From positions 1 to 44,758 of the forward strand of contig LXTG01000068.1 in NCBI GenBank assembly GCA_001643535.1: a stretch of 44,758 bases of DNA. Direction: 5' to 3'. The translations under genes and the position numbers were made by a program. How positions within the stretch are numbered: the stretch's first letter is position 1; each line of letters starts with the position of its first letter. The notes under the pieces are model-generated. The model did no database searches and was not told the origin of the DNA. It saw only the letters and a list, made by a program, of their open reading frames with translations. Below are positions 23,514-38,471 of the stretch, piece after piece. Origin of the DNA: a candidate division NC10 bacterium SPGG6. Its GTDB lineage: Bacteria; Methylomirabilota; Methylomirabilia; Methylomirabilales; CSP1-5.

Positions 23514-23786
23514 TTATTTCCCCTTCCCCTGGGCCGGCGAGATACCGGGATGGTCCAGAAAGAACTGTGCGTTTTTCGGGGTATAGCTCTTCCACTGCTC
23601 AGGTACCGCACTTTCTTCAAAAATTGCCGTCACCGGACACTCCGGTTCGCACGCCCCGCAGTCAATGCACTCCTCAGGGTGGATGTAGAGCTGGTGCTCC
23701 CCCTCGTAGATACATTCCACGGGGCAGACGTCCACGCACGCTCTGTCTTTTACCCCAATGCATGGTTCAGCAATTGTATACGTCAT
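23514..23786 (-). CDS. fdxA: 7Fe-type ferredoxin ([3Fe-4S][4Fe-4S], FdxA-like)
   Basis: [66 protein letters not shown] lies upstream of ATG 23786; the ORF-track start is 23840. Confidence 0.9.
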
Positions 23787-23829
23787 TGCTTTCCTCCCAC
23801 CGGTAAACGCCCCGTCCCTCCTTAGAATG

Positions 23830-24141
23830 TCACTCGGCAAAGATACCGTCGATCCATGTGCGCCAGGCGACTCCCTTGAGACCCTCCCGGCGCCCGCGTC
23901 CTCTCCGCAGCACTAGCTGCACCAGCTCTCCATACCCAGGAAATTCCCGGACCGTGTATCCGCAGACCTGACACCGCTTATAAAAGTACGGCCATCCCCC
24001 CTCCCCGCGCTGCATTCCTCCCGTTCGCTTCATCTGCCGGATACAACACGCGCTGGGAGACGGGGGCGAAATAATCTCTCGCGGATACCGATTTTTCGGC
24101 TGACCGTGGGGATCATAGCGAACAATCGTGACCAAGGCCAC
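23830..24141 (-). CDS. small zinc-ribbon-like hypothetical protein
   Basis: 103-aa ORF (GTG start; TTG two codons later is also possible) with Cys pairs ..SACCIRQM.. and ..[14 protein letters not shown].. and a basic C-terminus. No family recognised. Confidence 0.4.
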
Positions 24142-24502
24142 ACTCCTCCCGAGTCACAGTAAAGCTCTCTGCCTGATCCAAGATCCCACACAGCGCTGGG
24201 TTCCCTGGAGAGGAGTTTCAGGGACTCCCGCGCCAACTTCTCCCATCTCTCACCGAGAGCGGGGCAAGGACCATGCCAGCACATCCATTCGACGTGAGAC
24301 GCCAAGGGCGTACCTCTAACATCCTGTCTTTTCAGGCCACAGGGTACCTGAAGGAAAATCAAACGGCTCCACCAGCGAGTGTCTGATGCAGGGAATTTCT
24401 GGATGGCAGGGAGTTTCTCCCTGGTCAGATGTGGATGTTGTATCGCTGGCTCTGTTGCGCTGCTTGCTGCTGCTCGAGTGCGGCAGCTCTTCCGCCTCCA
24501 GC

Positions 24503-26347
24503 TCATCCAGTCGAATCTTGGTCTCCACGCGTATCCCCCTTCCGGCTCTGTGGGTTCTTATACGTTATTTTCATCAATTGAGCCGTCCTTGGGTTCTCTT
24601 TCAGGTGCTTGACGATCAGCTCCGTGCCGGTCCTATGATGGAAATATCCCATCCCTTCTCCCGGCAACCTGTTTTTTGTATAGAATTCGAAGAGCACATC
24701 GGTCACCGTGGCTACCTGTTCCCGGGGGACGCTCCGTACATACATTTCACCCGTCTCTCGATCGATCAGCGGCTCCCCCTGATGTCGCCCATCCTCGGTT
24801 CCGCCCAATTTGAGCTGGTACCGGTTGAGACCCATCCCAACCCAGCCAATGGTCTTTGTTGCGGGACGAAAACATTGCCGTTCACACCCTGTGACTCCAA
24901 TGGACTCGGCCATCTCCCCCCATTTCTGCTCTAATTCGTCAATCAGATACGGTTCGAATTTCTCCGCATCGGTATACGTCAGCTGGCAGGTGTCCCTTCC
25001 GACGCAGGCGCCAGACAGCAGCCGGAGCCGCGTGTAGGGCCGTCCGTGTCGCGTGCCGTACCCGAAACTTTTTAGGTAGGTTTCAAATTCCGACTTGGCG
25101 TCTGGCGGGATATTCGTGAACAAGATATCCTGATTCGGAGTCGTCATCAGCTCAACGGGGTATTTCTGCATCACGTATCGGACCATTGCTTTCAGTCTGC
25201 CATTCGGGCCGTCGATGATCCGTCCGTTCTCAATGAAGGCCCCGTAGCAGAGTTGCTCGTCGGATGGCTGCATGATCCACCCGTGATGCAGATGCCTGTT
25301 CCCGTAATCATGATCCGAGTCGGGCATTGCAAGATCGCATGCGCTGACCCGGCGAACTTGCTCTCGGAACCAGTCCATGCCCTGCTTTCTCAGGACATAT
25401 TTCATTCGAGCCCAGTGTCGGTTCTGACGGTCACCCCACTCCTGATGTACCTGCACGATCCCATCTAGGACTTTTAATAATTCACTTTCTCTCACGATGC
25501 CAAAGGGTTCTCCCAATGCAGAAAAAGTGGGTTTCCCGTTCCTTTCCCCTTGGCTGCCCCCGATATACACCTGGAATTGCGTGACCCTGCCATCTTCCAC
25601 AATCGGCGCAACTCCGATGTCATTAGTACGCAGTTCCACACAATTATCCGGAACATACGTCCCCTTTTCCCCATCGAAGTGCATCGCCGAGAAGCCGATC
25701 TTGAATTTTCGGTTCAACAAATTGGGACCGTATTGGAATCGCTCCTCCGGATCCCGTAAATAGTTCGGGTCTACGGCGAAAATTTCAATGAACGCTGCGG
25801 TGGGAAGCCTGAAGTATTTCCCTACTTTCTGGGCCCAGGCATTGGCATCATAGATTTTTGAGAAGCAGGAAAGGGGGCACCCCATGACATTTCTGACATT
25901 ATCTCCACATCCATTCAGACTATAAAATCCGGACTCGGCGACCCCCCGCACCACCTCAACAACATGTTCCTTTTTCACCCAATGGAATTGGATGTTTTGC
26001 CTGGTGGTAATTCGTAAGGACGCACTGCCCTCATGGCTCACCGTGAACCGCTCGGACAACTCGTCGAAGACCATCCATTGTTCTCGCGTGATGGGGCCTC
26101 CGCCAGGAATACTGATCCGAATCATGTACATCCAGTCTTTTTCCTTGCCTGTCTTGGCTCGGTTCCATTCAAGGTAAACTCCGTGAGATTTCGCGAGTTG
26201 TTCAGACTCCCACGCAAGATCGGCCAGAGAGGTATCGCGGAAATCCTGATACAGACTTCCGCGGATCCAGTTTGACGCCAGCTTCGTACGGTCGTGCCTG
26301 GAAAGCTCTTCAAGGGGTGTTTTTAGATTTGGATTGATCTCTTCCAT
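24503..26347 (-). CDS. sulfite/nitrite reductase hemoprotein (siroheme-[4Fe-4S]), assimilatory ferredoxin-sulfite-reductase-like
   Basis: 614 aa with two NIR_SIR half-domains. LRITTRQNIQFHW, CGDNVRNVMGCPL, and the cluster/siroheme cysteines SGACVGRDTCQL ... VTGCERQCFRP (CX5C...CX3C). Confidence 0.85.
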   Translation of the reverse strand: MEEINPNLKTPLEELSRHDRTKLASNWIRGSLYQDFRDTSLADLAWESEQLAKSHGVYLEWNRAKTGKEKDWMYMIRISIPGGGPITREQWMVFDELSERFTVSHEGSASLRITTRQNIQFHWVKKEHVVEVVRGVAESGFYSLNGCGDNVRNVMGCPLSCFSKIYDANAWAQKVGKYFRLPTAAFIEIFAVDPNYLRDPEERFQYGPNLLNRKFKIGFSAMHFDGEKGTYVPDNCVELRTNDIGVAPIVEDGRVTQFQVYIGGSQGERNGKPTFSALGEPFGIVRESELLKVLDGIVQVHQEWGDRQNRHWARMKYVLRKQGMDWFREQVRRVSACDLAMPDSDHDYGNRHLHHGWIMQPSDEQLCYGAFIENGRIIDGPNGRLKAMVRYVMQKYPVELMTTPNQDILFTNIPPDAKSEFETYLKSFGYGTRHGRPYTRLRLLSGACVGRDTCQLTYTDAEKFEPYLIDELEQKWGEMAESIGVTGCERQCFRPATKTIGWVGMGLNRYQLKLGGTEDGRHQGEPLIDRETGEMYVRSVPREQVATVTDVLFEFYTKNRLPGEGMGYFHHRTGTELIVKHLKENPRTAQLMKITYKNPQSRKGDTRGDQDSTG

Positions 26348-26462: not shown

Positions 26463-26688
26463 CCCTCCGGGCTTCGACTCCGCCCCGCGTTTGCAGGGCG
26501 TCGCTCAGGGCTAGCCTTGAGTCCCGCCCCAGCAGCGGGACGCATTATACACGAAGACACCCGTTCGTGAATAATGCGGGCTAGCTCGCCGTTAGTATCA
26601 CCCGTGATTTCCGATCGCCAGGCTTGGGAAAGGAAGGGATTTGGAGAGTCTAGACTTTCTTTCATCCGAAGGGAATCAAGGAGATCTT

Positions 26689-26946
26689 CTAGTCGGCCGC
26701 GCGCTGCACCTCGCTCAAAAGCGAACGGACCGTTTGAAAAGCCTCCTCTACAGAGGCAAAGCTCCGCCCGGCGAGCTGGGTCCGGACCGCCCGGTAGAGC
26801 CAAATTGATTCCTCCTTTCCGCCAGAACACTCAATCTCCATGGCACCTTTCGGAATTTCCTGCTCTGGTCGGGCCACCCCGATACCGACCACCTCAAATC
26901 GACCCCGGGTCTCCGCCACGTGCCAATAAAGAAGCCAACGGTCCAT
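26689..26946 (-). CDS. small hypothetical protein (85 aa) immediately downstream of nuoI
   Basis: ATG 26946 is preceded by AGGAGAGGGG. The sequence MDRWLLYWHVAETRGRFEVVGIGV... has non-repetitive composition. No family recognised. Confidence 0.45.
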   Translation of the reverse strand: MDRWLLYWHVAETRGRFEVVGIGVARPEQEIPKGAMEIECSGGKEESIWLYRAVRTQLAGRSFASVEEAFQTVRSLLSEVQRAAD

Positions 26947-27011
26947 TCTGCGCCCCTCTCCTCTTTTATTTGCGTGCGCCGCTCAGCGAGATGAGGAGAT
27001 CCGAGGGGGTG

Positions 27012-27539
27012 TCAGCCCTTGCCCCCCCCTTTTCCACCGCCGGGGGCAGCAGGCGCCTTCGCTGCCGCTCCCGGCGGGGAACGAGGAGTCATAATGGTGG
27101 GATAGAAGCCGTCGGCGTGCATCGTCTCCATGTCGTAGACCAGATTGGTCCGACTGAACCCACCCAGTTCGTACTTGCCGGTCCACATGGAGATCGCGTC
27201 AAAGGGACACACCTCGACACAGAGGTTGCAGTACATGCAGAGGTTGTGGTCGATGACGAACCACTTGGGCCGCCGCGCCTTCCCCTTTCCCTCCCCCGCC
27301 AGGTGGATGCAGTTGGCGGGACAGATCCGGGCACACATGTCGCAGGCGGTGCACTTGAGCTCCTGCGACTCCAAATCGATCGTCAGGACATGTTGGGTCA
27401 AGGCCCGGGTGGGAAGCTGCCGCTTCTCCTCAGGATACTGGACCGTCACCGCCCGGGTGAACAGATACCGGAGTGTGATTTGCATCGAGAGGAGGATGCT
27501 CCAGAAGCCTCGCCAAATCTCTCGGAGATACCGCCACAT
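27012..27539 (-). CDS. nuoI: NADH-quinone oxidoreductase subunit I (2x[4Fe-4S])
   Basis: CTACDMCARICP and CMYCNLCVEVCP motifs, TVQYPEEK near the N-terminus, and a Gly/Ala/Lys-rich C-terminal tail. Confidence 0.9.
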   Translation of the reverse strand: MWRYLREIWRGFWSILLSMQITLRYLFTRAVTVQYPEEKRQLPTRALTQHVLTIDLESQELKCTACDMCARICPANCIHLAGEGKGKARRPKWFVIDHNLCMYCNLCVEVCPFDAISMWTGKYELGGFSRTNLVYDMETMHADGFYPTIMTPRSPPGAAAKAPAAPGGGKGGGKG

Positions 27540-27543
27540 TTTC

Positions 27544-28596
27544 TCACCCCATTGGCGAAAGGACTAATACGAGCAGCCCGGTGATCCCTAGATTCACAAA
27601 GGCCAGGGGCAGCAGGACCTTCCAAGCCACGTGCATCAGTTGATCTACGCGCACCCTGGCCAGCGTCCATCGAAGCCATATCATCACAAAGAGGAGGAAA
27701 TAGGTCTTGAGCAGGAACCAGACCCAGGGAGCCAACAGTGGACCCTGCCACCCCCCGAGAAAAACGGTGGTGGCAATGGCGCAGACGACAAACATATTCG
27801 CGTACTCCGCCAGGAAAAAGATGGCGAATCGCATCCCACTATACTCGACATGAAACCCGGACACGAGTTCCGACTCCGCCTCCGGGATATCGAAGGGGAG
27901 CCGGTTGGTCTCCGCCACGGCACAGGTGAAGTAGATGAGAAAAGCCAGGGGTTGCACCACGATTAACCATCCAGGGAGGATGCCAAGCCAGGTTCCCCCC
28001 TGATACTCCACGATGTCCGTCATCCTGAGAGAGCCCACTAGGAGGAGAGGACCCAGCAGGGAAATCACCAGGGGCACCTCGTAGCTCACTGCCTGCGCCG
28101 CGGACCGGAGCGCGCCCAACGCAGCGTACTTGTTGTTGGAGCCCCAGCCGGCCATGATGATTCCCACCACCGTGAGAGAAGAGATAGCAATGATGTACAG
28201 AATACCGATGTTGAGATCCTGCACGATGAGGCCGGGACCGAATGGAATTACCACATAGGTGGCCAACGATGCGGCGAAGACCACGATCGGGGCCAGGATA
28301 AAGACCGGCCTGTCGGCCCGGGTCGGGATGATGTCCTCCTTGAGCAGGAGCTTGAGCCCGTCGGCGATACTCTGGGCCCACCCGTGCCAGCCCCCGACCC
28401 GCATCGGACCGAACCGAGCCTGGATGTGGGCGCTGATCTTTCGCTCCCACCAGATCAGGAACATGGCCGACACCGAGATAAAACCGATGATGATGCTCAC
28501 CACCCCGAGCATGATGGCGAGGCGCGGAACGATCCACGGAATGCCCCACGCCTCAAAAAGGGCGTAAAATTGTTCGAGGGCTCCAGCGCTCACCAC
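27544..28596 (-). CDS. nuoH: NADH-quinone oxidoreductase subunit H
   Basis: 350-aa polytopic membrane protein with WWERKISAHIQARFGP, YAALGALRSAAQAVSYEV and ETNRLPFDIPEAESELVSGFHVEYSG. Confidence 0.95.
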   Translation of the reverse strand: MVSAGALEQFYALFEAWGIPWIVPRLAIMLGVVSIIIGFISVSAMFLIWWERKISAHIQARFGPMRVGGWHGWAQSIADGLKLLLKEDIIPTRADRPVFILAPIVVFAASLATYVVIPFGPGLIVQDLNIGILYIIAISSLTVVGIIMAGWGSNNKYAALGALRSAAQAVSYEVPLVISLLGPLLLVGSLRMTDIVEYQGGTWLGILPGWLIVVQPLAFLIYFTCAVAETNRLPFDIPEAESELVSGFHVEYSGMRFAIFFLAEYANMFVVCAIATTVFLGGWQGPLLAPWVWFLLKTYFLLFVMIWLRWTLARVRVDQLMHVAWKVLLPLAFVNLGITGLLVLVLSPMG

Positions 28597-28627
28597 CTAC
28601 ACCCTTCTTGCACCAGCAGTCGGCTAT

Positions 28628-28718
28628 TCGGATTTCGAATTGCGAATTTCGAATATGGGATTGGGGACTAAACACTTCCGTAGAAAATCCGAAATCCGCA
28701 TTCCCAAATTCGAAATGT
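28628..28718. repeat. heptamer-built imperfect inverted repeat in the nuoD|nuoH spacer
   Basis: Arm 1 (28628-28669): tcggatt tcgaatt gcgaatt tcgaata tgggatt ggggact. Arm 2 (28684-28718): aaaatcc gaaatcc gcattcc caaattc gaaatgt. 28645-28666 can pair with 28696-28717 at 18 of 22 positions. Confidence 0.85.
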
Positions 28719-28746
28719 TTGCAAGCTGACCGCTGGCAGCTATGGA

Positions 28747-29889
28747 TTAGCGGTCCACCTCGCACAGCACGATATCCACGCTCCCCAAGATCGCAACCGC
28801 ATCGGCCACCATATAGCCGGGGAGCATCACCGGCAGGGCGGAGAGATTGACAAAGGTCGGTGCGCGGACCTTGTAGCGATACGGCCGCTCGGACCCGTCC
28901 GCGACGATGTAGTGCCCCAACTCCCCCCGCGGGCTCTCCACCCGCGAATAGATGTCCCCCACCGGCGCCCGCAGCTTCTTCGCCACCGGGGCCAGGACCG
29001 GCCCCGGGGGAATCGCCTTCAAACCCTGCTCCACGATCTTGACCGATTGCTCCATCTCCTGGCGGCGCACCCAGAAGCGGTCCCACACATCCCCGTTCGG
29101 CCCCACCGGGATGTCAAACTCAAACCGGTCGTAGATCCCGTACGGGTCGTCCCGCCGCAGATCCCACCGGATCCCCGAGCCCCGGAGCATGGGCCCGGAG
29201 CAGGCGTAGCTGATGGCATCCTCGGGCTTGAGAATCCCCACCCCCTGGATCCGTTTCTGCCAGATGATGTTGTCGGTGCTGAGGCGGTCGTACTCGGACA
29301 GCCGCGGCGTGAACCACGCTAAAAACGCCTTCACATCCGCCAGCCACCCCTCCGGGACATCCAGGGCCAGCCCCCCAATCCGCATGAAGCTGTAATTGAT
29401 CCGTTGCCCCGAGACCGCCTCGAACAGGTCCAGGATCATCTCCCGCTCCCGAAAACACCACATGAAGAGGGTGAAGTTGCCGAGGTCGAGGCCAAAGGTC
29501 CCCAGCCAGATCAGATGCGAGGCGATCCGCTGTAGTTCCCCGATGATGACTCGGAGATACTCCGCCCGCGCCGGGATGCTGATCTCCATCAGCCGCTCGC
29601 AGGCGAGGCAGTAAGCCCAGTTGTTGTACATCGAGGCCAGGTAGTCGAGCCGGTCGGTGTACGGGATGATCTGGACGTAGGCGCGGTTCTCCCCGATCTT
29701 CTCGTGGCAGCGATGCATGTAGCCCAGGTAGGGGATGCATTCGCGCACCACTTCCCCGTCCAGCTTCAACAGCAGGCGTAATACCCCGTGGGTCGATGGG
29801 TGCTGTGGCCCCATGTTGACCCACATCTCCTCCATCGATTCGGTGGTCCGTTCTTTGACCTGCTGAAGGTGAAGGTTGATTGTCGTCAT
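28747..29889 (-). CDS. nuoD: NADH-quinone oxidoreductase subunit D
   Basis: 380 aa with NMGPQHPSTHGVLRL, GYMHRCHEK and the C-terminus DIVLCEVDR. Confidence 0.95.
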   Translation of the reverse strand: MTTINLHLQQVKERTTESMEEMWVNMGPQHPSTHGVLRLLLKLDGEVVRECIPYLGYMHRCHEKIGENRAYVQIIPYTDRLDYLASMYNNWAYCLACERLMEISIPARAEYLRVIIGELQRIASHLIWLGTFGLDLGNFTLFMWCFREREMILDLFEAVSGQRINYSFMRIGGLALDVPEGWLADVKAFLAWFTPRLSEYDRLSTDNIIWQKRIQGVGILKPEDAISYACSGPMLRGSGIRWDLRRDDPYGIYDRFEFDIPVGPNGDVWDRFWVRRQEMEQSVKIVEQGLKAIPPGPVLAPVAKKLRAPVGDIYSRVESPRGELGHYIVADGSERPYRYKVRAPTFVNLSALPVMLPGYMVADAVAILGSVDIVLCEVDR

Positions 29890-29901
29890 GCCGCCTGCTT
29901 C

Positions 29902-30408
29902 CTATGCCGTCGTCGGTCGGGGCACGCTTCCCGGCTTCCGATCCTCCCAGGGATAGGCAACAAACCGTTCATCCTGGTAATCCTTCCGGAGGGGATAGCC
30001 GATCCAGTCTTCGGGGAGGAGGATCCGCCGTAGGTCCGGATGGTTCTCAAACCGGATCCCGAACAGGTCAAAGGCCTCTCGCTCGTGCCAGTTCGCTGTC
30101 CCCCAGAGGGGGACCACCGAGCGGAGGACCGGCTCATCCTGGGGGACCCTCGCCCGGAGGATAATCTTCCCCGGCTGTTTGAGGGAGGAGATGGCATACA
30201 CCACTTCCATCTCTTTATCGGCAGTCCAGTCGACGCCGCTCAGGCAGTTCAGGTAATCGTACCCCAGCTCCTCCTTGATAAAGCGGCAGATCTCGAAATT
30301 TCGGTCTGCCTTGATGGTCACACAGGCCTCGCCACGCCGGACCTCTGCTGTTCGGATCTCCTCGCGGAACCGGGACTGAATCTGCTGAAGGATCTCTTCC
30401 GCCGTCAT
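29902..30408 (-). CDS. nuoC: NADH-quinone oxidoreductase subunit C
   Basis: 168 aa with ANWHEREAFDLFGIRFENHPDLRRILLPEDW. Confidence 0.9.
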   Translation of the reverse strand: MTAEEILQQIQSRFREEIRTAEVRRGEACVTIKADRNFEICRFIKEELGYDYLNCLSGVDWTADKEMEVVYAISSLKQPGKIILRARVPQDEPVLRSVVPLWGTANWHEREAFDLFGIRFENHPDLRRILLPEDWIGYPLRKDYQDERFVAYPWEDRKPGSVPRPTTA

Positions 30409-30417
30409 TGCATTAGC

Positions 30418-30508
30418 GTCCGATGTCCGAAGTTCGAAGTCCGATGTCGAACGTCACACAGTGGCCGGTCAATCCTGACGTCGGACCTCACACGTCGGAC
30501 GTCAGACT
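30418..30508. repeat. 13 consecutive heptanucleotides forming inverted GTCCGAN / TCGGACN arms in the nuoA|nuoC spacer
   Basis: gtccgat gtccgaa gttcgaa gtccgat gtcgaac gtcacac agtggcc ggtcaat cctgacg tcggacc tcacacg tcggacg tcagact. Confidence 0.85.
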
Positions 30509-30512
30509 TTCA

Positions 30513-30872
30513 CTAGACCCACTCGAGTGCCCCCTTGGCCCACGCGTAGGCGAGGCCGACCAGGAGGATCACGATGAAAATCATCATCTCAATGAAGGCA
30601 AACAAGCCGAGGGAGCGGTAGACAATGGCCCAGAGGAAGAGGAAGACCGTTTCCACCGCGAAGAGGATAAACATCAGGGTAAAGAGATAGTACCGGATGT
30701 GGATCCGGAGCCACGGGCCGCCGATGGGATCTTCACCGCACTCGTAGGTGGTGAGCTTTTCCGGCGTCGGATTCGCCGGGCGGATAATACGCGAAAGGAC
30801 ATCAATGTTGAGGACTACGAAGAGGAGGCCGACGATGAGGAAGAGCGCGACATATGCGTAATCGGCTGCCAT
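30513..30872 (-). CDS. nuoA: NADH-quinone oxidoreductase subunit A
   Basis: 119 aa with three TM helices, TTYECGEDP, and FILFAVETVFLFLWA. Confidence 0.9.
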   Translation of the reverse strand: MAADYAYVALFLIVGLLFVVLNIDVLSRIIRPANPTPEKLTTYECGEDPIGGPWLRIHIRYYLFTLMFILFAVETVFLFLWAIVYRSLGLFAFIEMMIFIVILLVGLAYAWAKGALEWV

Positions 30873-30883
30873 ACTCCCTCAAC

Positions 30884-30908
30884 AATAAAAATGCCCTTCG
30901 CAGGGCAT
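30884..30908 (-). terminator. rho-independent terminator-like hairpin (ATGCCCT-GCGA-AGGGCAT + T-run) between the cytochrome c gene and nuoA
   Basis: Minus strand: atgccct gcga agggcat ttttatt. The stem is 30891-30897 / 30902-30908 and the T-run is the reverse complement of 30884-30890. It ends about 11 nt before the nuoA ATG. Confidence 0.6.
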
Positions 30909-30996
30909 CACGTCCTGGGATAGTCTCCGAGCTTGTGAATTACGTTACTAAGTAGCATAAATTTTCCAGCGATGTCAAGTGAAATGTCGCCCGAAT

Positions 30997-31347
30997 TCAC
31001 CTTGTGTTCAGAGTCCTGACATACGCCAGGACATCCTCCCGGTCTTTCTCATCCATGCTCCACTGAAAGCCCGGCATCTTCCCTTTCCCCTTATTGATGA
31101 CCTGAAAGAGCTCCTGATCACTCTTGTCTTGCACTCTTTTTGAGGTGAAGTCCGGGATCTCGACCTGGAGCATCTGCACCATTCGGGGGCTGCCCTTGCC
31201 GTCCTCGGCATGGCACTTCAGACAGCGGACGGCATACACCTCCTTCCCGTTCGCGAGATCCGCAGCTACCGTCGGGGCCGGGACCAGGATGATCGAGGCC
31301 GCCAGGAAAGATCCTACGACCCAACTCTTGGTATCGTGCCTCACCAT
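30997..31347 (-). CDS. monoheme class-I c-type cytochrome with an N-terminal signal/anchor
   Basis: MVRHDTKSWVVGSFLAASIILVPAPTVAA.., the haem motif CLKCH, and a distal GKMPGF. GGAGG lies upstream of ATG 31347. The ORF-track extension to 31746 overlaps the upstream gene and is low-complexity. Confidence 0.85.
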   Translation of the reverse strand: MVRHDTKSWVVGSFLAASIILVPAPTVAADLANGKEVYAVRCLKCHAEDGKGSPRMVQMLQVEIPDFTSKRVQDKSDQELFQVINKGKGKMPGFQWSMDEKDREDVLAYVRTLNTR

Positions 31348-31490: not shown

Positions 31491-32666
31491 TTAGCTGTCG
31501 CCCCCCTCTTCCGGCATGGCCGCAGATTCCTCGACGTCCGCCAGGTAATGGCAGGTCGAGCAGAGATCGTGGGGCTCTGCCTCTCCATCGGCAAGGAACT
31601 GTACCTCGCACCGGCCACAGCGGCGGTATGCCTTCTCCAATAGGATCTGCTGATCTTTTGAGGCAACAACTTTCAATGAAAGCCCTTGCCGGTAGGTCAG
31701 GGCATTCGGAATGCAGGCATCCAGACAGAGAGCACAGTTGACGCACCGACTTGCATCCACGGTGAGGCGGAAGGCCTCCTCGCCCCCTCCCCGCTCGATT
31801 GCCCCGGTGGGACAGATCTGGACACAGGCCTCACAGGCATTACACTTCACCTCGTCGAGGAGAAGCTGCGCAAAGGGACCTTCGGGATCGTAGGGGACTT
31901 CCCCGTCCTCAACTTCGAACTTCTTGAGAAAGTGAGGAAGGAGTCGATTCCGGAGAGGAAGAGAAGTCCTCCTCGTGGACCCTCTGCCCTGAAACGCCTG
32001 GGAGAAGTCGTCGAGGAAAGAAGCCATGAGCTGCATCCCTTCGCTTCTCACCCAGGTGAAAAACGCCCGACGGTCAGGGCCTACCGTCTTCCATCTCTTG
32101 TGTTTCCCGCGAGTCCCCTCCCTCTCCTCTATGATCCTCTCGGAAGATCCAGGAAGGGCTTGACCCCAGGTGCGAATCCGACCGAGCATCCGCCGGTATC
32201 GAGGCATCGCCTCTGGGTACGGGCACTTCTCGCAAGGCCCTCGCGTAAGGTAGACCTCTTGGGCCCCGAGGGCCAAGGCACCCAGCAAAATGGTCTCGTC
32301 CAGACGCGCCAGGCAGGGCAGGATGAGATCGGCTGATGCGGCATTTACGCTCTGTTCGCAGGTGATGGACAGGGAAGGGCTCTCTCGCAAGCGAGAGGCT
32401 ACCTGGGAGAGAAGCTGCCCCGCTGCCGCCCCGTTGAGATCAAAGGCGGAGACGGGACAGACGGTGAGGCAGACCCCGCAGCCGGTGCAGTCATTCAGGA
32501 CGTGGACCCCCCCACTGAGATCGATGCTCTGGACCGGGCAACTCTTCACGCACAGGTGACAGTCCGAAAGTCCAGAATGCTCCCGCAGACAGCGGGGTGT
32601 CTCGACTGTGGCCTGCGCCCCCCCTACCCGATGAAGGAAGCGTTCGAAACGGTCTAAGGGCTCCAT
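31491..32666 (-). CDS. multi-[4Fe-4S] ferredoxin-domain protein of unknown function
   Basis: Four CX2CX2CX3CP-type motifs (CHLCVKSCP, CTGCGVCLTVCP, CNACEACVQICP, CVNCALCLDACIP) flank a ~200-aa non-ferredoxin insert. There is a C-terminal CGRCE...CSTCH pair. Start at MEPLDRF (32666), because the ORF-track start at 32738 lies inside the heptamer repeat. Confidence 0.7.
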   Translation of the reverse strand: MEPLDRFERFLHRVGGAQATVETPRCLREHSGLSDCHLCVKSCPVQSIDLSGGVHVLNDCTGCGVCLTVCPVSAFDLNGAAAGQLLSQVASRLRESPSLSITCEQSVNAASADLILPCLARLDETILLGALALGAQEVYLTRGPCEKCPYPEAMPRYRRMLGRIRTWGQALPGSSERIIEEREGTRGKHKRWKTVGPDRRAFFTWVRSEGMQLMASFLDDFSQAFQGRGSTRRTSLPLRNRLLPHFLKKFEVEDGEVPYDPEGPFAQLLLDEVKCNACEACVQICPTGAIERGGGEEAFRLTVDASRCVNCALCLDACIPNALTYRQGLSLKVVASKDQQILLEKAYRRCGRCEVQFLADGEAEPHDLCSTCHYLADVEESAAMPEEGGDS

Positions 32667-32688
32667 CTTCGGTGACCGACAAGAAAAA

Positions 32689-32793
32689 GGTGACTGGTGG
32701 TCAGTGGCTAGTGGCTGGTGGTTTTCACCAATCACCAATCACCAGCCACCAATAATCCATGAACCCTCAACTCTCAACCCTGAACGCTGAATT
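32689..32793. repeat. spacer composed of 15 consecutive heptanucleotides (NGTGGNT x5, NNCACCA x4, CTSAACN x4)
   Basis: ggtgact ggtggtc agtggct agtggct ggtggtt ttcacca atcacca atcacca gccacca ataatcc atgaacc ctcaact ctcaacc ctgaacg ctgaatt. It shares a 19-mer with 12780-12798. Confidence 0.9.
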
Positions 32794-34249: not shown

Positions 34250-35230
34250 TTACTCGGTCCGGCGAAGGAGCCGAGCGGCGTCTTTGGCGAAGTACGTGAG
34301 GATCAGGTCGGCCCCCGCCCGTTTGATGGCCGTGAGGATCTCCAACATGGCTCGCTCCTCCTCCAGCCATCCCAGTCTGGCGGCGGCCTTCACCATGGCG
34401 AATTCCCCACTCACATTGTAGGCGGCCACCGGCACGTCAAACTCGGTCCGGACCCGCCATAGGACGTCCAGGTATGCCAGGGCAGGCTTCACCATGACGA
34501 TATCGGCCCCCTCCTCGATGTCCATGGCGACCTCTCGTAAGGCCTCCACGACGTTTGCCGTATCCATCTGATAGCTCCGCCGATCCCCGAATTGAGGGGC
34601 CGACTCCGCCGCCACCCGGAAGGGTCCGTAGAAAGCCGAGGCGTATTTGGCCGCATACGACATGATCGCGACCTCCTCAAAACCGCTCGTGTCCAAGGCC
34701 TCGCGGATCGAGGCCACTCGGCCGTCCATCATGTCCGAGGGGGCCACGATGTCTGCCCCCGCCTCCGCCTGGGAGACCGCAGCCTTCGCCAGGAGTTCCA
34801 GGGTCGGATCGTTTTTGACAATCCCCTTCTCCACCACCCCGCAGTGGCCGTGACTCGTGTATTCGCAAAGACATGTGTCGGTGATGACGAGGAGGTCCGA
34901 GACCGAATCTTTAATGGCTTGCACGGCCTGTTGGATAATCCCATCCTTGGCGTACGCCTCGGATCCGTGGGCATCCTTATGCTCCGGGATGCCGAAGAGG
35001 AGAACCGCAGGGATGCCGAGGGTGGCAATCTCTTTGACTTCCCTGGTGAGCTGGTCCACAGAGAATTGGTAGTTGCCGGGCATAGGCGGAATTTCCTGTC
35101 GGATCCCGCGCCCGTGAACGACGAAGAGCGGCATAATGAGATTGTCCACCTGCAGGATCGTTTCCCGGACCATCCGACGGATCGTTTCCGACCGCCGGAG
35201 ACGTCGGGGGCGCCGCAATGGAAAATGCAT
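34250..35230 (-). CDS. hemB: porphobilinogen synthase (delta-aminolevulinate dehydratase), zinc-type
   Basis: [15 protein letters not shown], the Cys-rich metal site [14 protein letters not shown], and [10 protein letters not shown] (the Schiff-base lysine). Confidence 0.95.
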
Positions 35231-35394
35231 CCTTCGATCTCCGTGAGAAACGAGAGGCCTTAACCTCGGGATGTGCTCTATATATACCGAACTGTCCGGC
35301 TTGGGTCAATGTCCAGCATCTCTTCACCCCTCAGCTCTGGGCCAAGCACCCATTGCTGACTGCTGCCGCTCCTTGCTTGCAAAAACATGAAGAG

Positions 35395-36957
35395 ATGGGT
35401 ATCATAGGCGCCATCATGGGGAGACCCGTAGGCAAGCTCTCAGAACGAAAGCCAAAAACCAGGTCGCTAGGCCAAGTTCGTGCCGACGGACTGGACCCGA
35501 AGGGTCTCCTGACCACCCTCCTCTCCCGCCTCGACGTGGGTGTCCTGGCTGTGGACCGCCACGGAAAGATCATCACCACGAACACAGCCTGGTGGACTCT
35601 TTTGGGGCTCCCACGCCGCCAACCTTCCGGCCGAGGCTTCGGCGTCGCCTTCCCGCCTCCTCTGCGATCCCAGGCGCGATCCCTCGTCGAGGAGCTCCGT
35701 CAGAAGAAGGATCCGGCGGGGCTTCTCATGGCCGAGGAGGGGCTCCACCTCCAGGCGACCCCCTGGAAGAGGGGGGCGCTCTTCTTGCTGACCGAACAAC
35801 CGCTCTTACGAGAGCGAGCCCTGACACAAAAGATCCTGGACAGTCTCCCCCTAGGCCTCTATGTCATCGACCGAAGCTTCACCATCGTCGCCTGGAATCG
35901 AACCCGGGAGACGGCCCCCTGGGGTATGAAACGGGAGGAGGTGATCGGCCGGAATCTCTTTCATGCCCTCCCCTCGTTGCGGCGCACCAGGATTGAGGAG
36001 GAGTTCCGCCAGGTCTTCGAGACCGGGGCTACTCTCCAGGTAGAAGAGTACTCAACATTGGAGGGAGATCGGAGGACCTTCCGGATCAGCAAGGTCCCCC
36101 TTACCAGCGTTTCAGGTCTTGTCACCCACGTGATAACACTGGTTGAAGATATCACCGAACGCCGACGGATAGAGCGACAACTCTTGGCCAGCGAGAAGCT
36201 GGCCGGAATTGGCCAGCTCGCCTCTGGCATTGCCCACGAATTGAACAATCCGATGGCCACTATTGCCTCCTGTGCCGAGGGTCTCCTCAAACAAAGCCAC
36301 GGCCCCCCGTCGGCCCTGAAGGATTCCGAGGACTTCAGGCCTTATCTTCGCATCATCGAGGAGGAGGTCTACCGATGCAAGGGGATCCTAGTCGGTCTCT
36401 CCGAAATCAGCCGAGAGGGGAGTGGGGAGCAGCATCCCATCGATCTCCGCGCCCTGCTCGAGGGGACTCTCCGTGTCCTCAGCTATCAACTCCGGAGCCG
36501 GGGGATCACCGTCAACCGAGAATTTGAGGACGACCTGCCTCTGCTCCTGGGCAACGAGGGAGAGCTCCGCCAGGCATTCCTGGCCCTCTTTATCAATGCC
36601 CTCGAGGCCATGAACAGGGGCGCCATCCTGACCATTAGGGCCAGAGCGGCTGGTCCCGGGGCGCGGGTTCTTAGTTCTCCACCAACGAGGTTCCAGTCCT
36701 TGCGATCGGCCCCAGGGATCCTGGTCGAGATCGAGGACACTGGTCGGGGGATCCCCGCCCACCTCTTGCCCCGGGTCTTCGAACCCTTCTTCAGCACGAA
36801 GCCCCCCGGAAAAGGCGCAGGGCTAGGCCTGTATATCTGCGAGGGAATTATGAGTGCCCACGGGGGCAGGATGGAGATCGATTCGGTCGAGGGGAAGGGG
36901 ACGCTCGTCCGGATCCACCTCCCCTCGGCAAAAACCCCGATCAGAGAGAGGGGATAA
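35395..36957 (+). CDS. PAS-domain sensor histidine kinase (NtrB-like)
   Basis: Two PAS-like segments, H-box GIAHELNNPMATI, N-box FINALEA, G1 EDTGRGIP and G2 GKGAGLGL. Start at ATG 35395; the ORF-track start at 35218 overlaps the divergent hemB. Confidence 0.85.
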   Translation: MGIIGAIMGRPVGKLSERKPKTRSLGQVRADGLDPKGLLTTLLSRLDVGVLAVDRHGKIITTNTAWWTLLGLPRRQPSGRGFGVAFPPPLRSQARSLVEELRQKKDPAGLLMAEEGLHLQATPWKRGALFLLTEQPLLRERALTQKILDSLPLGLYVIDRSFTIVAWNRTRETAPWGMKREEVIGRNLFHALPSLRRTRIEEEFRQVFETGATLQVEEYSTLEGDRRTFRISKVPLTSVSGLVTHVITLVEDITERRRIERQLLASEKLAGIGQLASGIAHELNNPMATIASCAEGLLKQSHGPPSALKDSEDFRPYLRIIEEEVYRCKGILVGLSEISREGSGEQHPIDLRALLEGTLRVLSYQLRSRGITVNREFEDDLPLLLGNEGELRQAFLALFINALEAMNRGAILTIRARAAGPGARVLSSPPTRFQSLRSAPGILVEIEDTGRGIPAHLLPRVFEPFFSTKPPGKGAGLGLYICEGIMSAHGGRMEIDSVEGKGTLVRIHLPSAKTPIRERG

Positions 36958-38339
36958 TGCGCGCCGGACAGGGCAAGATCCGGGTTCTGATTGCCGACGA
37001 CGAGAAGAACTTTGCCAGGGTGTTGAAGGCAGAGCTCGGGCGTGAGGGGCACAGCACCGAGGTCTCCTCGAACGGGCGGGAGGCCCTCGAGAGACTCAAG
37101 GAGCAGGAATTCGACGTCCTCATCCTCGATCTCAAGATGCCCAAGCTCGGGGGGATGGAGGTTCTCAAGGAGCTGCGGAAGTGGACCCTGGCGCCGGAGG
37201 TGATTATCCTCACCGGACACGGAACCATCCCGACTGCCGTGGAGGCCATGAAGCTCGGCGCTTACACTTATATGATGAAGCCCTGCAAGACCGCCGAGCT
37301 GAACCTCCTGATCCGAAAGGCGTATGAAAAGCAGCAGATCCTCCGAGAGAATCTCTACCTCAAGACTCGCCTGGCGAAGGACGACCCATTTCCGGAGATC
37401 GTGACCACCAGTGAGAAGATTCGGCGGATCCTGGAGATGCTCACCAAGATCGCGCCGACCGATTCTACCGTCCTCATAACCGGCGAGAGCGGCACCGGCA
37501 AGGAACTGGTCGCGAAGGCCATCCACCAGAAATCGAAGCGGAAAGACAAACCTTTCCTGGTCATCAACTGCGGGGCGCTACAGGAGAGCATCCTGGAGAG
37601 TGAGCTTTTCGGGCATGAGAAGGGGGCATTCACCGGGGCCCACACGACAAAGCTCGGCCTCTTCGAGGTGGCGGACAGAGGAACTCTCCTCCTCGACGAG
37701 ATCGGCGAGATCTCCCAGGCCATGCAGTTGAAGCTCCTGCGCGTCATCGAGAACGGCAAGTTCTTCCGGGTCGGAAGCACGCGGGAGCGGCAGGTCGATG
37801 TCCGGGTCCTCTCGGCAACGAATAGAGACCTCCAGGCACATGTTAAGGCCGGAAAATTTCGCGAGGATCTGTATTATCGCATCAATGTCATCCCCCTCCA
37901 CGTTGCTCCCTTGCGAGAGCGGCCTGAGGACGTCCCTCTCCTGACGCAACACTTTCTGCAGCTCTTCGCTCCCCTTGGCAAGAAGACCATGAGTAGGGAC
38001 GCCATCAATTACCTCACCCGCTACTCCTGGCCTGGGAACGTCCGGGAGCTCCAGCACGTCATTCGGCGGGCCCTTATCCTCTCTCCCAAAGACCAGATCG
38101 AAGCGGAGGATCTTCCCCTTGACCTCCAGGTAGACCAGGTTTCGAAACGGGTGGCTGCCTCGCACGGCTCTCCGTCCACCCTCGGGGAGGTAGAGCGGCA
38201 GCATATCCTCCGGGTCATGGAGCAGGCAAAGGGGCACCGGGGAGAGGCCGCACAGATCCTAGGGATCGATCCCAAGACCCTATACCGCAAGCTCCTGACC
38301 TACCGTATCGATATCCCCGAACCCCGCGACCGTCGCTAA
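36957..38339 (+). CDS. sigma-54-dependent response regulator (NtrC family)
   Basis: Receiver domain (DVLILDLKMP), AAA+ domain GESGTGKELVA, GAFTGA loop (EKGAFTGA), ESELFGHEKG, and a C-terminal Fis-type HTH. It overlaps the kinase stop (ATAATG). Confidence 0.95.
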   Translation: MRAGQGKIRVLIADDEKNFARVLKAELGREGHSTEVSSNGREALERLKEQEFDVLILDLKMPKLGGMEVLKELRKWTLAPEVIILTGHGTIPTAVEAMKLGAYTYMMKPCKTAELNLLIRKAYEKQQILRENLYLKTRLAKDDPFPEIVTTSEKIRRILEMLTKIAPTDSTVLITGESGTGKELVAKAIHQKSKRKDKPFLVINCGALQESILESELFGHEKGAFTGAHTTKLGLFEVADRGTLLLDEIGEISQAMQLKLLRVIENGKFFRVGSTRERQVDVRVLSATNRDLQAHVKAGKFREDLYYRINVIPLHVAPLRERPEDVPLLTQHFLQLFAPLGKKTMSRDAINYLTRYSWPGNVRELQHVIRRALILSPKDQIEAEDLPLDLQVDQVSKRVAASHGSPSTLGEVERQHILRVMEQAKGHRGEAAQILGIDPKTLYRKLLTYRIDIPEPRDRR

Positions 38340-38455: not shown

Positions 38456-38471
38456 TGGCACCTTCCTTGCT
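38456..38471 (+). promoter_or_regulatory. sigma-54 (-24/-12) promoter TGGCAC-N5-TTGCT
   Basis: TGGCAC at 38456-38461, five nt, then TTGCT at 38467-38471. It lies 28 nt upstream of ATG 38499, and AAGGAGAGG (38488-38496) lies between them. Confidence 0.75.

What the first reader, a model, noticed from the sequence alone, without database searches (positions are those of the whole stretch)
27012..30872. Truncated complex-I cluster nuoA-C-D-H-I: no nuoB, no nuoEFG and no nuoJKLMN, followed co-directionally by sulfite reductase and ferredoxin genes
The five genes are clear by motif, but the canonical order A-B-C-D-(E-F-G)-H-I-J-K-L-M-N is broken at three points. The nuoA|nuoC gap is only 104 nt, the nuoD|nuoH gap is 150 nt, and after nuoI come an 85-aa unknown ORF and a ~340-nt leader instead of nuoJ. 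What remains is the quinone-site 'heel' (A, H) plus Q-module subunits (C, D, I). Missing are the N2-cluster subunit NuoB, any NADH-oxidising module, and any antiporter-like pump subunit. NuoB is the obligate partner of NuoD in all known complex-I and group-4 hydrogenase relatives, so its absence from the cluster is unusual. Lack of EFG alone is common. Downstream on the same strand lie a siroheme sulfite reductase (24503-26347), a zinc-ribbon ORF and a 7Fe ferredoxin. As inference only, this could be a non-pumping quinone-linked ferredoxin or sulfite-reduction module. Alternatively it could be a decaying or split paralogue of a complete nuo operon encoded elsewhere.
Basis: partly seen in the sequence, partly recalled or inferred. 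Interest (0 to 1): 0.68.

Follow-up and report, generated by a model that had tools for sequence, protein, structure and literature searches.

The report
Complex I operon cut by repeat
The five genes are real, but they are the front half of an ordinary ten-gene respiratory complex I operon; the apparent truncation falls inside a duplicated gene that genome assemblers cannot cross reliably, so it is probably not biology.

Summary
The window is a whole 44,758-nt public contig from a Candidatus Methylomirabilales (NC10) bacterium.

At least ten related loci share the upstream synteny (sigma54 two-component pair, hemB, hemL, polyferredoxin). There the operon runs nuoA-C-D-H-I-J-K-L-M-N-atpB-atpE. 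So the lack of nuoB and nuoEFG is clade-wide, and the lack of nuoJ-N is peculiar to this contig.

In this species nuoI is a two-copy repeat with a 480-nt core (27031-27510) at least 99.4% identical between copies.
- Two entries lead in: nuoH, or a GAF kinase plus sigma54 regulator with a decayed nuoH stub.
- Two exits lead out: orf85-sulfite reductase, or nuoJKLMN-atpBE.
- All four entry/exit combinations occur in public assemblies, and 16 contigs stop inside the repeat.
- One MAG carries nuoACDH and nuoJ-N on separate contigs, each broken in nuoI.

Most likely the contig crosses the repeat wrongly (about 0.65). A real recombination isomer has about 0.22. A dedicated non-pumping module is not supported.

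The genuine oddity is a nuoI paralogue at the sulfite reductase/Fe-S biogenesis locus. It stays near-identical to the operon copy in probably three species.

The parts
30513..30872 (-). nuoA (119 aa)
   Evidence: Pfam Oxidored_q4, 1.6e-35. It is 82-89% identical to NuoA of related Methylomirabilales loci.
30409..30512 (-). nuoA|nuoC spacer, 104 nt, with no nuoB. It forms a stable intercistronic hairpin.
   Evidence: RNA fold -46.6 kcal/mol, z -3.9. Relatives have spacers of 82-123 nt at this position and also lack nuoB.
29902..30408 (-). nuoC (168 aa)
   Evidence: Pfam Complex1_30kDa, 6.4e-43. TIGR01961 scores 139.8 against a cut-off of 122.45.
28747..29889 (-). nuoD (380 aa), complex-I type and not a hydrogenase large subunit
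   Evidence: TIGR01962 scores 480 against a cut-off of 459. The best solved relatives are cyanobacterial NdhH (4e-113), mitochondrial NDUFS2 and T. thermophilus Nqo4. The GPQHPSTHG and PYTDRLDY quinone-site motifs are kept.
28597..28746 (-). nuoD|nuoH spacer, 150 nt, forming a stable hairpin
   Evidence: RNA fold -55.8 kcal/mol, z -4.8.
27544..28596 (-). nuoH (350 aa); this is entry E1 into the repeat
   Evidence: Pfam NADHdh, 1.1e-124. NF004741 scores 369 against a cut-off of 305.
27012..27539 (-). nuoI (175 aa) with two CxxCxxCxxxCP motifs. As assembled it is a hybrid: an operon-type 5' end joined to a sulfite-reductase-locus-type 3' tail (KGGGKG).
   Evidence: TIGR01971 1.4e-32. Variants are aligned. 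This exact protein is not on record elsewhere.
27031..27510 (.). Core of the two-copy repeat R, 480 nt and at least 99.4% identical in all contigs of the species. It is flanked by older, roughly 72-75% identical duplicated flanks at 27511-27624 and 27005-27030.
   Evidence: Sixteen public contigs end inside it, and all four entry/exit combinations are found across it.
26689..26946 (-). orf85, a conserved protein of unknown function that always lies between the nuoI copy and the sulfite reductase gene; this starts exit X1
   Evidence: 73% identical in L060 and 92-99% identical in 9 other sequences. AlphaFold pLDDT 92.6 with no PDB fold match. No Pfam match.
26544..26571 (-). sigma70-like promoter match upstream of the sulfite reductase gene
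   Evidence: TTCACG-16-TATAAT, 10 of 12 positions. This is a consensus match only.
24503..26347 (-). Siroheme nitrite/sulfite reductase (614 aa), most likely an assimilatory ferredoxin-type sulfite reductase
   Evidence: Pfam NIR_SIR plus NIR_SIR_ferr. It is closest to the CysI/Sir NCBIfam models but below their cut-offs. The 84%-identical homologue sits between HEM4 and PAPS reductase/ATP sulfurylase/TP_methylase.
24385..24453 (-). 69-nt element with a CAGGGAG-AAA-CTCCCTG palindrome. A second copy follows the sigma54 regulator gene in entry E2.
   Evidence: 94-97% identical copies in L007, L043 and L044 (E2), and a conserved copy in L060.
24264..24278 (-). sigma54-type -24/-12 box (TGGCATGGTCCTTGC) upstream of orf103/fdxA
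   Evidence: A perfect box lies at the same place in L060. A perfect box with the same 106-nt spacing from the 69-nt element lies upstream of nuoI' in E2.
23514..23840 (-). fdxA, a 7Fe-type ferredoxin. It is preceded by orf103 (23830-24141) and followed by mrp, iscA and sufBCDS-nifU.
   Evidence: NF045480 scores 126.6 against a cut-off of 125. The neighbours come from Pfam annotations of the identical contig L008.
31491..32738 (-). Polyferredoxin (415 aa) that is conserved immediately upstream of nuoA in relatives. A cytochrome c gene lies at 30997-31347, and a terminator-like hairpin at 30890-30909 lies between it and nuoA.

Best explanation
The five genes are the promoter-proximal half of a clade-conserved operon, nuoA-C-D-H-I-J-K-L-M-N. 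This is a complex I without NuoEFG, and its NuoB is encoded elsewhere.

The species carries a second copy of nuoI, called nuoI' here, in front of orf85-sulfite reductase-fdxA-mrp-iscA-suf. The two copies share a 480-nt core that gene conversion keeps virtually identical.

The window contig enters the repeat from nuoH and leaves it into the sulfite reductase locus. That path most probably reflects an assembler's arbitrary choice at an unresolvable repeat. The true neighbours would then be nuoH-nuoI-nuoJ..N, and sigma54 regulator-nuoI'-orf85-sulfite reductase.

Shown: the gene identities, the repeat, its four flanks, nuoJ-N in the same species and the same MAG, the intact operon in relatives, and a nuoI-like copy next to orf85 and the sulfite reductase gene in another species.

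Inferred: which entry pairs with which exit in this particular genome, that NuoB is supplied from a second nuo operon, and that gene conversion is what homogenises the copies.
For: 1. Relatives have an intact operon. The upstream synteny is the same (sigma54 regulator/PAS kinase, hemB, hemL, polyferredoxin, nuoACDHI), and nuoI is followed about 20 nt later by nuoJ, K, L, M, N, atpB and atpE. This holds in L015, L016, L018, L019, L022, L028 (CSP1-5) and L038-L041.

2. Homology between the window and those operons stops about 5 nt after the nuoI stop codon, near 27007.

3. Sixteen same-species contigs end inside nuoI: L001-L006 on the nuo side, L008, L009 and L035-L037 on the sulfite reductase side, and L051-L054 and L056 on the nuoJ side.

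4. Contigs that cross the repeat show all four combinations:
- nuoH-R-orf85: the window and L046.
- regulator-R-orf85: L007/L047, L048, L049 and L050.
- regulator-R-nuoJ: L043, L044 and L045.
- nuoH-R-nuoJ: L055.
L043 and L007 are 99.98% identical over 4.2 kb up to the repeat's end and then diverge.

5. MAG GCA_022563785.1 holds nuoACDH plus part of nuoI on one contig (L004; its NuoD is identical to the window's) and nuoJKLMN-atpBE on another that starts inside nuoI (L052).

6. L060 is another species, with a sulfite reductase 87% identical. It has a 175-aa nuoI copy followed by orf85-sulfite reductase-fdxA-mrp-iscA-suf, with neither nuoH nor nuoJ beside it. The 5' 99 nt of that copy are 100% identical to the operon nuoI at the broken end of L021. 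In what is probably CSP1-5, a second NuoI (KRT69191.1, on a 101-kb contig) is identical to the operon NuoI for about 149 aa.

7. The regulatory region upstream of nuoI' in E2 consists of the 69-nt element, 106 nt of spacer and a sigma54 box. It is a paralogue of the region upstream of orf103/fdxA inside the sulfite reductase locus. This ties E2 to that locus.
Against: - Counting contigs does not favour either pairing. Six contigs or proteins show nuoH-orf85 or regulator-nuoJ, and five show the other two combinations.
- Exact NuoI proteins of the nuoH-type head plus nuoJ-type tail were not found among the four variants tried, whereas two of three with the nuoH-type head plus sulfite-reductase-type tail were found.
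- No reads or mate pairs could be inspected, so a true rearranged genome is not excluded.
- The location of nuoB in this genome was not shown. There is only a hint: NuoB accession MCZ6549964.1 is numerically close to NuoJ/K accessions MCZ6550633/4 of the same species cluster.
- L060 could in principle suffer from the same ambiguity on its exit side.
Confidence: 0.65

Rival explanations
1. The contig is correct. Homologous recombination between the two nuoI copies, if they are inverted on the chromosome, has inverted the intervening segment. In this strain, or in part of the population, nuoACDHI is then followed by orf85 and the sulfite reductase gene, while nuoI'-nuoJKLMN-atpBE sits behind the sigma54 promoter of the GAF kinase/regulator pair. 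Complex I would still be made, from two transcription units.
For: The reciprocal junction, regulator-R-nuoJKLMN, is assembled three times, including a 13.5-kb scaffold (L043, L044, L045). The window-type junction is assembled independently in L046 and in a 944-nt Logan contig, the latter inferred only from its protein P0213. A perfect sigma54 box about 95 nt upstream of nuoI' could drive nuoJ-N. Near-perfect identity of the core implies ongoing exchange between the copies. L055 shows a small E2-like patch within an E1 flank.
Against: The other two junction types are assembled as well, in L007, L048-L050 and L055. At least ten related loci keep nuoI-nuoJ contiguous. A 480-nt exact repeat exceeds short-read length, so crossings by de Bruijn assemblers carry little linkage information; low-coverage contigs (3-7x) are among those that cross. 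The relative orientation of the two copies is unknown.
Confidence: 0.22
2. One reading: nuoA-C-D-H-I is a dedicated, non-pumping quinone-site module that lacks NuoB and the antiporter subunits and passes electrons between quinone and ferredoxin or sulfite reductase.
For: The genes are co-directional on this contig. Fe-S proteins flank it: a polyferredoxin upstream, and NuoI, fdxA and the sulfite reductase downstream.
Against: The linkage exists only across an ambiguous repeat. nuoJ-N are present in the species and contiguous in relatives. The 84%-identical sulfite reductase homologue sits in an ordinary cysH/sat/siroheme cluster with no nuo genes. A promoter-like site and a conserved sigma54 box separate the units. 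No complex-I relative is known to work without NuoB (established knowledge of the family).
Confidence: 0.03
3. The cluster is a decaying paralogue of a complete nuo operon elsewhere.
For: A second nuoABCD-type operon exists in the phylum, with NuoD 76-78% identical (L029, L024). Isolated nuo fragments also occur: nuoA2 after atpE, and a nuoA-nuoD pair in L023.
Against: All five ORFs are intact and 82-93% identical in protein to orthologues across many genomes. The catalytic motifs are kept. NuoD is identical in contigs from at least 23 assemblies.
Confidence: 0.03

Closest known systems
Complex I gene clusters without NuoEFG (11-subunit type, 'partial complex I operons')
   Same: The subunits are NuoA, C, D, H, I, J, K, L, M and N in the canonical order, with a complex-I-type NuoD and no NADH-oxidising module. 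Such operons are reported as abundant and are thought to use other electron donors (PMC4453560, discussion citing earlier surveys).
   Different: nuoB is not in the operon in this clade. A polyferredoxin gene is conserved just upstream. The operon is followed by atpB-atpE.
Nitrospina gracilis NUO-2 (dispersed complex I genes)
   Same: In N. gracilis, nuoB2 is unlinked from a nuoACHIJKLMN cluster, so a nuo cluster without nuoB has a precedent in a neighbouring lineage (PMC3578206).
   Different: There nuoD is also moved away (a nuoEGD cluster), and modified NuoEFG subunits exist. Here nuoC and nuoD stay in place and no EFG genes are linked.
Cyanobacterial/chloroplast NDH-1 (ferredoxin-dependent)
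   Same: The best solved match to NuoD is NdhH (4e-113), and neither system has NuoEFG.
   Different: None of the Ndh-specific subunits was looked for or seen. The gene order is bacterial nuo, and NCBIfam places NuoD with bacterial NuoD.
Duplicate genes kept identical by gene conversion that also act as recombination and assembly-break points (for example tufA/tufB in enterobacteria; own knowledge, not tested here)
   Same: There are two copies with a near-identical core and diverged flanks. The same pattern recurs in probably three species, which is the signature of concerted evolution. Assemblies break at the copies or join them in every combination.
   Different: Here the duplicated gene is a complex I subunit, and the second copy sits next to sulfite reductase and Fe-S cluster biogenesis genes. 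Exchange was inferred from sequence patterns only.

Membership tests
Respiratory complex I (Nuo/NDH-1 type) | A NuoD/49-kDa subunit of the complex I type, with the quinone-site His and Tyr and without the NiFe-binding CxxC pairs | tested here: met
   TIGR01962 scores 480 against a cut-off of 459. The alignment to NdhH/NDUFS2 keeps the HPSTHG and PYTDRLDY motifs. No CxxC pairs occur at either terminus (sequence).
Respiratory complex I (Nuo/NDH-1 type) | A NuoB/PSST subunit carrying cluster N2, as partner of NuoD | tested here: not met
   None is found in the window or in any orthologous operon locus. NuoB genes do exist in NC10 MAGs within a second nuoABCD operon (L029; the cluster). Its presence elsewhere in this particular genome is inferred, not shown.
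Respiratory complex I (Nuo/NDH-1 type) | The membrane 'heel' subunits NuoA and NuoH, and the 2x[4Fe-4S] subunit NuoI | tested here: met
   Pfam and NCBIfam matches. Both CxxCxxCxxxCP motifs are present in NuoI.
Respiratory complex I (Nuo/NDH-1 type) | NuoJ and NuoK plus the antiporter-like subunits NuoL, M and N | tested here: met
   They are absent from the window. They are present in the same species directly after the same nuoI repeat (L044, L051-L054), and in the same MAG as a nuoACDH contig (L052 with L004).
Respiratory complex I (Nuo/NDH-1 type) | The NADH-oxidising module NuoE, F and G | tested here: not met
   It is not in the window and not in the orthologous operons. A fused NuoE/F gene follows a second nuoA about 7 kb downstream in L039. 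The lack of EFG defines the known 11-subunit subclass.
Group 4 membrane-bound [NiFe] hydrogenases (Ech/Mbh/Hyc) | A large subunit with N- and C-terminal CxxC nickel-binding motifs, plus hydrogenase maturation genes | tested here: not met
   NuoD lacks the motifs. The weakest PDB relative on the list is the MBH-type chain 6u8y_L, at 2.5e-62 against 4e-113 for NdhH. No hyp genes occur in the window.
Assimilatory siroheme sulfite reductase (CysI/Sir) | A NIR_SIR ferredoxin-like half-domain plus the NIR_SIR 4Fe-4S/siroheme domain | tested here: met
   Pfam PF03460 3.6e-19 and PF01077 7e-37.
Assimilatory siroheme sulfite reductase (CysI/Sir) | An equivalog-level score to CysI or Sir, and a sulfate-assimilation gene context | tested here: inconclusive
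   NF010029 scores 355 against a cut-off of 457, and TIGR02042 scores 238 against 731. The 84%-identical homologue lies with PAPS reductase, ATP sulfurylase and siroheme genes. In the window the neighbours are Fe-S biogenesis genes.

The most novel reading that the evidence does not exclude
The two near-identical nuoI copies are inverted repeats that mediate a reversible chromosomal inversion. Cells would then switch between an intact nuoA-N operon and a split state. In the split state nuoACDHI reads into orf85 and the sulfite reductase gene, and nuoI'-nuoJKLMN-atpBE comes under a sigma54 promoter controlled by the adjacent GAF kinase/regulator. Both isomers would coexist in natural populations, which would explain why all four junctions are assembled.
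Probability: 0.1. Interest if true: 0.6.

Novelty: new member of a known kind. Interest (0 to 1): 0.22.

Why it matters
Taken at face value, the contig suggests a new NuoB-less, pump-less complex I derivative wired to sulfite reduction. That would have been remarkable. The evidence instead shows an ordinary EFG-less complex I operon whose distal half is hidden by a duplicated gene.

This is a practical warning for MAG-based metabolic reconstruction of NC10 bacteria. nuoI is a systematic assembly break or mis-join point, so 'truncated complex I' and 'complex I-sulfite reductase' clusters in these genomes should not be interpreted without long reads.

Two smaller points are of some biological interest. 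First, nuoB is absent from this operon across the whole clade. Second, a nuoI paralogue sits with orf85, sulfite reductase and Fe-S biogenesis genes and evolves in concert with the operon copy. That paralogue could hint at a NuoI-like ferredoxin serving sulfite reduction.

Tried and rejected
- nuoB hidden in the window. tblastn with two NuoB queries found only chance hits. One hit, at 23948-24190, looked suggestive (E 0.09), but it contains stop codons and lies in a frame that no gene caller uses.
- Phasing entry to exit through SNPs inside the repeat. Only three variable sites exist (27480, 27444, 27298). 27444 tracks the entry side loosely, and none links to an exit.
- Exact-sequence look-ups of the four possible NuoI chimeras. 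The result was informative, but it is fragile to single SNPs. The nuoH-to-nuoJ type was later found in L055 with a different gene call.
- Known RNA elements, for example a riboswitch ahead of the sulfite reductase gene. There were no Rfam hits at gathering thresholds anywhere in the window.
- The 'repeat-filled junctions' idea for the nuoA|nuoC and nuoD|nuoH gaps. The repeat finder found nothing meaningful. These spacers are hairpins, not repeats.
- Function of orf85. It has no Pfam or NCBIfam family, and its confident AlphaFold model has no PDB neighbour (best E about 1).
- Literature on complex I of Methylomirabilis. Three full-text searches gave nothing specific on this operon.

Full report
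**What is in the window.** On the minus strand the ORFs run in this order: hemB, hemL, a 415-aa polyferredoxin, a small cytochrome c, nuoA (30513-30872), nuoC (29902-30408), nuoD (28747-29889), nuoH (27544-28596), nuoI (27012-27539), an 85-aa ORF (26689-26946), a 614-aa siroheme nitrite/sulfite reductase (24503-26347), small ORFs, fdxA (23514-23840), mrp, iscA and sufBCDS-nifU. Pfam and NCBIfam confirm every nuo call. NuoD is a bona fide complex-I 49-kDa subunit. Its best solved relatives are NdhH, NDUFS2 and Nqo4, the quinone-site motifs are kept, and it has no NiFe cysteine pairs. The stated gaps are correct. No nuoB lies anywhere in the 44.8 kb. The two internal spacers are not repeats; they are very stable hairpins.

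**Whose DNA it is.** NuoD retrieves only Candidatus Methylomirabilota/Methylomirabilales (NC10) genomes. The exact orf85 protein is on record on a contig of 44,758 nt, which is the length of the window. The window is therefore a whole metagenome-assembled contig, not a piece of a closed genome.

**Relatives.** At least ten related loci share the upstream synteny: L015, L016, L018, L019, L022, L028 (CSP1-5) and L038-L041. That synteny is a sigma54 regulator with a PAS kinase, hemB, hemL, a polyferredoxin, and nuoA-C-D-H-I. In all of them nuoI is followed about 20 nt later by nuoJ, nuoK, nuoL (about 660 aa), nuoM, nuoN, atpB and atpE. In several, a second nuoA and a fused nuoE/F come next. None has nuoB between nuoA and nuoC. 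The missing nuoB and nuoEFG are therefore a stable property of this operon in the clade, whereas the missing nuoJ-N is peculiar to the window. Homology between the window and these operons ends about 5 nt after the nuoI stop codon.

**The repeat.** Six public contigs carry a NuoD identical to the window's, and all of them terminate inside nuoI. Five contigs carrying the identical or 97-98% identical sulfite reductase begin inside nuoI. One sulfite reductase contig, L007, continues upstream into a GAF histidine kinase and a sigma54 response regulator rather than into nuoH. It then shows a decayed stub of roughly 110 nt of the nuoH 3' end, about 72% identical.

A metagenome scan with a 29-mer from the 3' part of nuoI found L043. 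L043 is 99.98% identical to L007 over 4.2 kb up to 19 nt before the nuoI stop, and then continues into nuoJ-nuoK instead of orf85. The species therefore has two copies of nuoI. They share a 480-nt core (window 27031-27510) that is at least 99.4% identical everywhere. There are two entries: E1 is nuoH, and E2 is the regulator plus the nuoH stub. There are two exits: X1 is the tail KGGGKG followed by orf85 and the sulfite reductase gene, and X2 is the tail KQERKG followed by nuoJ.

**What assemblies say about linkage.** Exact-sequence look-ups and contig retrieval recover all four combinations:
- E1-R-X1: the window, L046, and by inference a 944-nt Logan contig known only from its protein P0213.
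- E2-R-X1: L007/L047, L048, L049 and L050.
- E2-R-X2: L043, L045, and L044, which is a 13.5-kb scaffold with nuoJKLMN-atpBE.
- E1-R-X2: L055.

Five further contigs start inside the repeat and run into nuoJ-N. One of these is L052 from MAG GCA_022563785.1, the same MAG whose contig L004 carries nuoACDH with a NuoD identical to the window's. So nuoJ-N are present in this species and in that genome.

The repeat is longer than a short read, so a contig that crosses it carries little linkage information. The near-even mix of crossings is what arbitrary traversal, or a mixed population, would produce. SNPs within the repeat do not phase entries to exits.

**Which pairing is more likely.** Four lines of evidence favour the canonical pairing, nuoH-nuoI-nuoJ together with regulator-nuoI'-orf85-sulfite reductase.
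- All other species keep nuoI-nuoJ contiguous.
- L060 is a different species, with a sulfite reductase 87% identical. It has a complete 175-aa nuoI copy directly before orf85-sulfite reductase-fdxA-mrp-iscA-suf, with unrelated genes upstream and no nuoH stub. The first 99 nt of that copy are 100% identical to the operon nuoI at the broken end of contig L021. The two-copy system and its homogenisation are therefore older than this species.
- In what is probably CSP1-5, the operon on a 152-kb contig runs nuoI-nuoJ. A second NuoI (KRT69191.1), identical for about 149 residues and then divergent, lies on a different 101-kb contig.
- The regulatory region between the E2 regulator gene and nuoI' is a paralogue of the region between the sulfite reductase gene and orf103/fdxA. 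Each consists of a 69-nt element with a palindrome, then 106 nt, then a TGGCAC-N5-TTGC sigma54 box. The arrangement is conserved in L060. This suggests that the regulator, nuoI'-orf85-sulfite reductase and orf103-fdxA form one neighbourhood.

I put about 0.65 on the window junction being a mis-join. I put about 0.22 on it being a true recombination isomer, either fixed in a strain or flip-flopping. The remainder goes to other readings.

**nuoB.** A NuoB gene sits between nuoA and nuoC in another Methylomirabilota operon type (L029, and partly in L024). The NuoD of that type is 76-78% identical to the window's. Proteins at least 90% identical to that NuoB form a cluster of 246 sequences from NC10 MAGs. 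One is MCZ6549964.1, on an 85-kb contig. Its accession number lies about 670 away from MCZ6550633/4, the NuoJ/NuoK of the window-species cluster, which is consistent with one MAG holding both. This is a hint, not proof, that NuoB is supplied from a second operon. An unlinked nuoB has a published precedent in Nitrospina gracilis NUO-2 (PMC3578206). EFG-less operons are common (PMC4453560).

**The sulfite reductase side.** The 84%-identical homologue in other Methylomirabilales lies in a classical assimilatory cluster: HEM4, sulfite reductase, PAPS reductase, ATP sulfurylase and a siroheme methylase. An assimilatory sulfite reductase is therefore the best reading. In the window lineage it sits with ferredoxin and Fe-S assembly genes. 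A sigma70-like promoter match precedes it, and the sigma54 box lies between it and fdxA. A single nuoA-to-fdxA transcript is therefore unlikely. orf85 is a real conserved protein with a confident but unmatched predicted fold.

**Verdict.** The interpretation as a truncated, NuoB-less, non-pumping module is not supported. What is there is an ordinary EFG-less complex I operon with nuoB unlinked, plus a concertedly evolving nuoI duplicate at the sulfite reductase/Fe-S locus that breaks or scrambles assemblies. Interest is low, apart from the duplicate and the small chance of a genuine recombinational switch.

Noticed in passing
window 24385-24453 and 24264-24278; L044 4683-4751 and 4857-4871; L060 5863-5917 and 6027-6041: A 69-nt element with a CAGGGAG-AAA-CTCCCTG palindrome is followed 106-107 nt later by a sigma54-type -24/-12 box. 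It occurs twice in the species: upstream of nuoI' next to the sigma54 regulator gene, and upstream of orf103/fdxA. The arrangement is conserved in a second species. It looks like a duplicated enhancer plus promoter for the adjacent GAF kinase/sigma54 regulator.
   Followed up: partly
window 26689-26946: orf85 is an 85-aa protein that always lies between the nuoI copy and the sulfite reductase gene, and it is 73% identical across species. AlphaFold gives pLDDT 92.6 from a single sequence (three strands, then two helices). It has no Pfam family and no PDB fold neighbour.
   Followed up: partly
window 30409-30512 and 28597-28746: The nuoA|nuoC and nuoD|nuoH spacers fold into unusually stable RNA hairpins (-46.6 and -55.8 kcal/mol; z -3.9 and -4.8). 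They are built from tcggac and ttcgaaat-like motifs and may be intercistronic processing or stabilising structures.
   Followed up: partly
L023 9603-11113: An isolated, overlapping nuoA-nuoD pair (NuoD 79% identical to the window's) lies on a 168-kb Methylomirabilota contig. It sits among YHS-domain, heavy-metal-associated, Rieske and cupredoxin genes, with no other nuo genes nearby.
   Followed up: partly
L028 20137-20562; L039 17374-19604: In relatives the operon is followed by atpB-atpE, then a second nuoA paralogue (42-46% identical) and a 602-aa fused NuoE/NuoF protein. In the window species a 170-aa C-terminal fragment of an antiporter-like subunit and a Rex-type repressor follow atpE instead (L044, L051, L052).
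   Followed up: no
window 31491-32738 and 30997-31347: A 415-aa polyferredoxin is conserved immediately upstream of nuoA in all relatives, while a small cytochrome c is present only in some. The polyferredoxin is a candidate electron-input partner for this EFG-less complex. A terminator-like hairpin at 30890-30909 separates these genes from nuoA.
   Followed up: no
window 38456-38470: A perfect sigma54 -24/-12 box (TGGCACCTTCCTTGC) lies just downstream of the PAS kinase/sigma54 regulator pair (35218-38339) on the plus strand.
   Followed up: no
L049 1-180; L045 and L048 contig starts: Contigs also break or change partner at the 69-nt element. L049 carries different sequence upstream of it, so a second, shorter repeat adds to the assembly tangle at this locus.
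   Followed up: no
window 27298 (nuoI codon 81): The window and L055 carry C at this site, giving Ala81. All other contigs of the species carry A, giving Glu81. This SNP is one reason why the exact NuoI protein of the window is not on record.
   Followed up: yes
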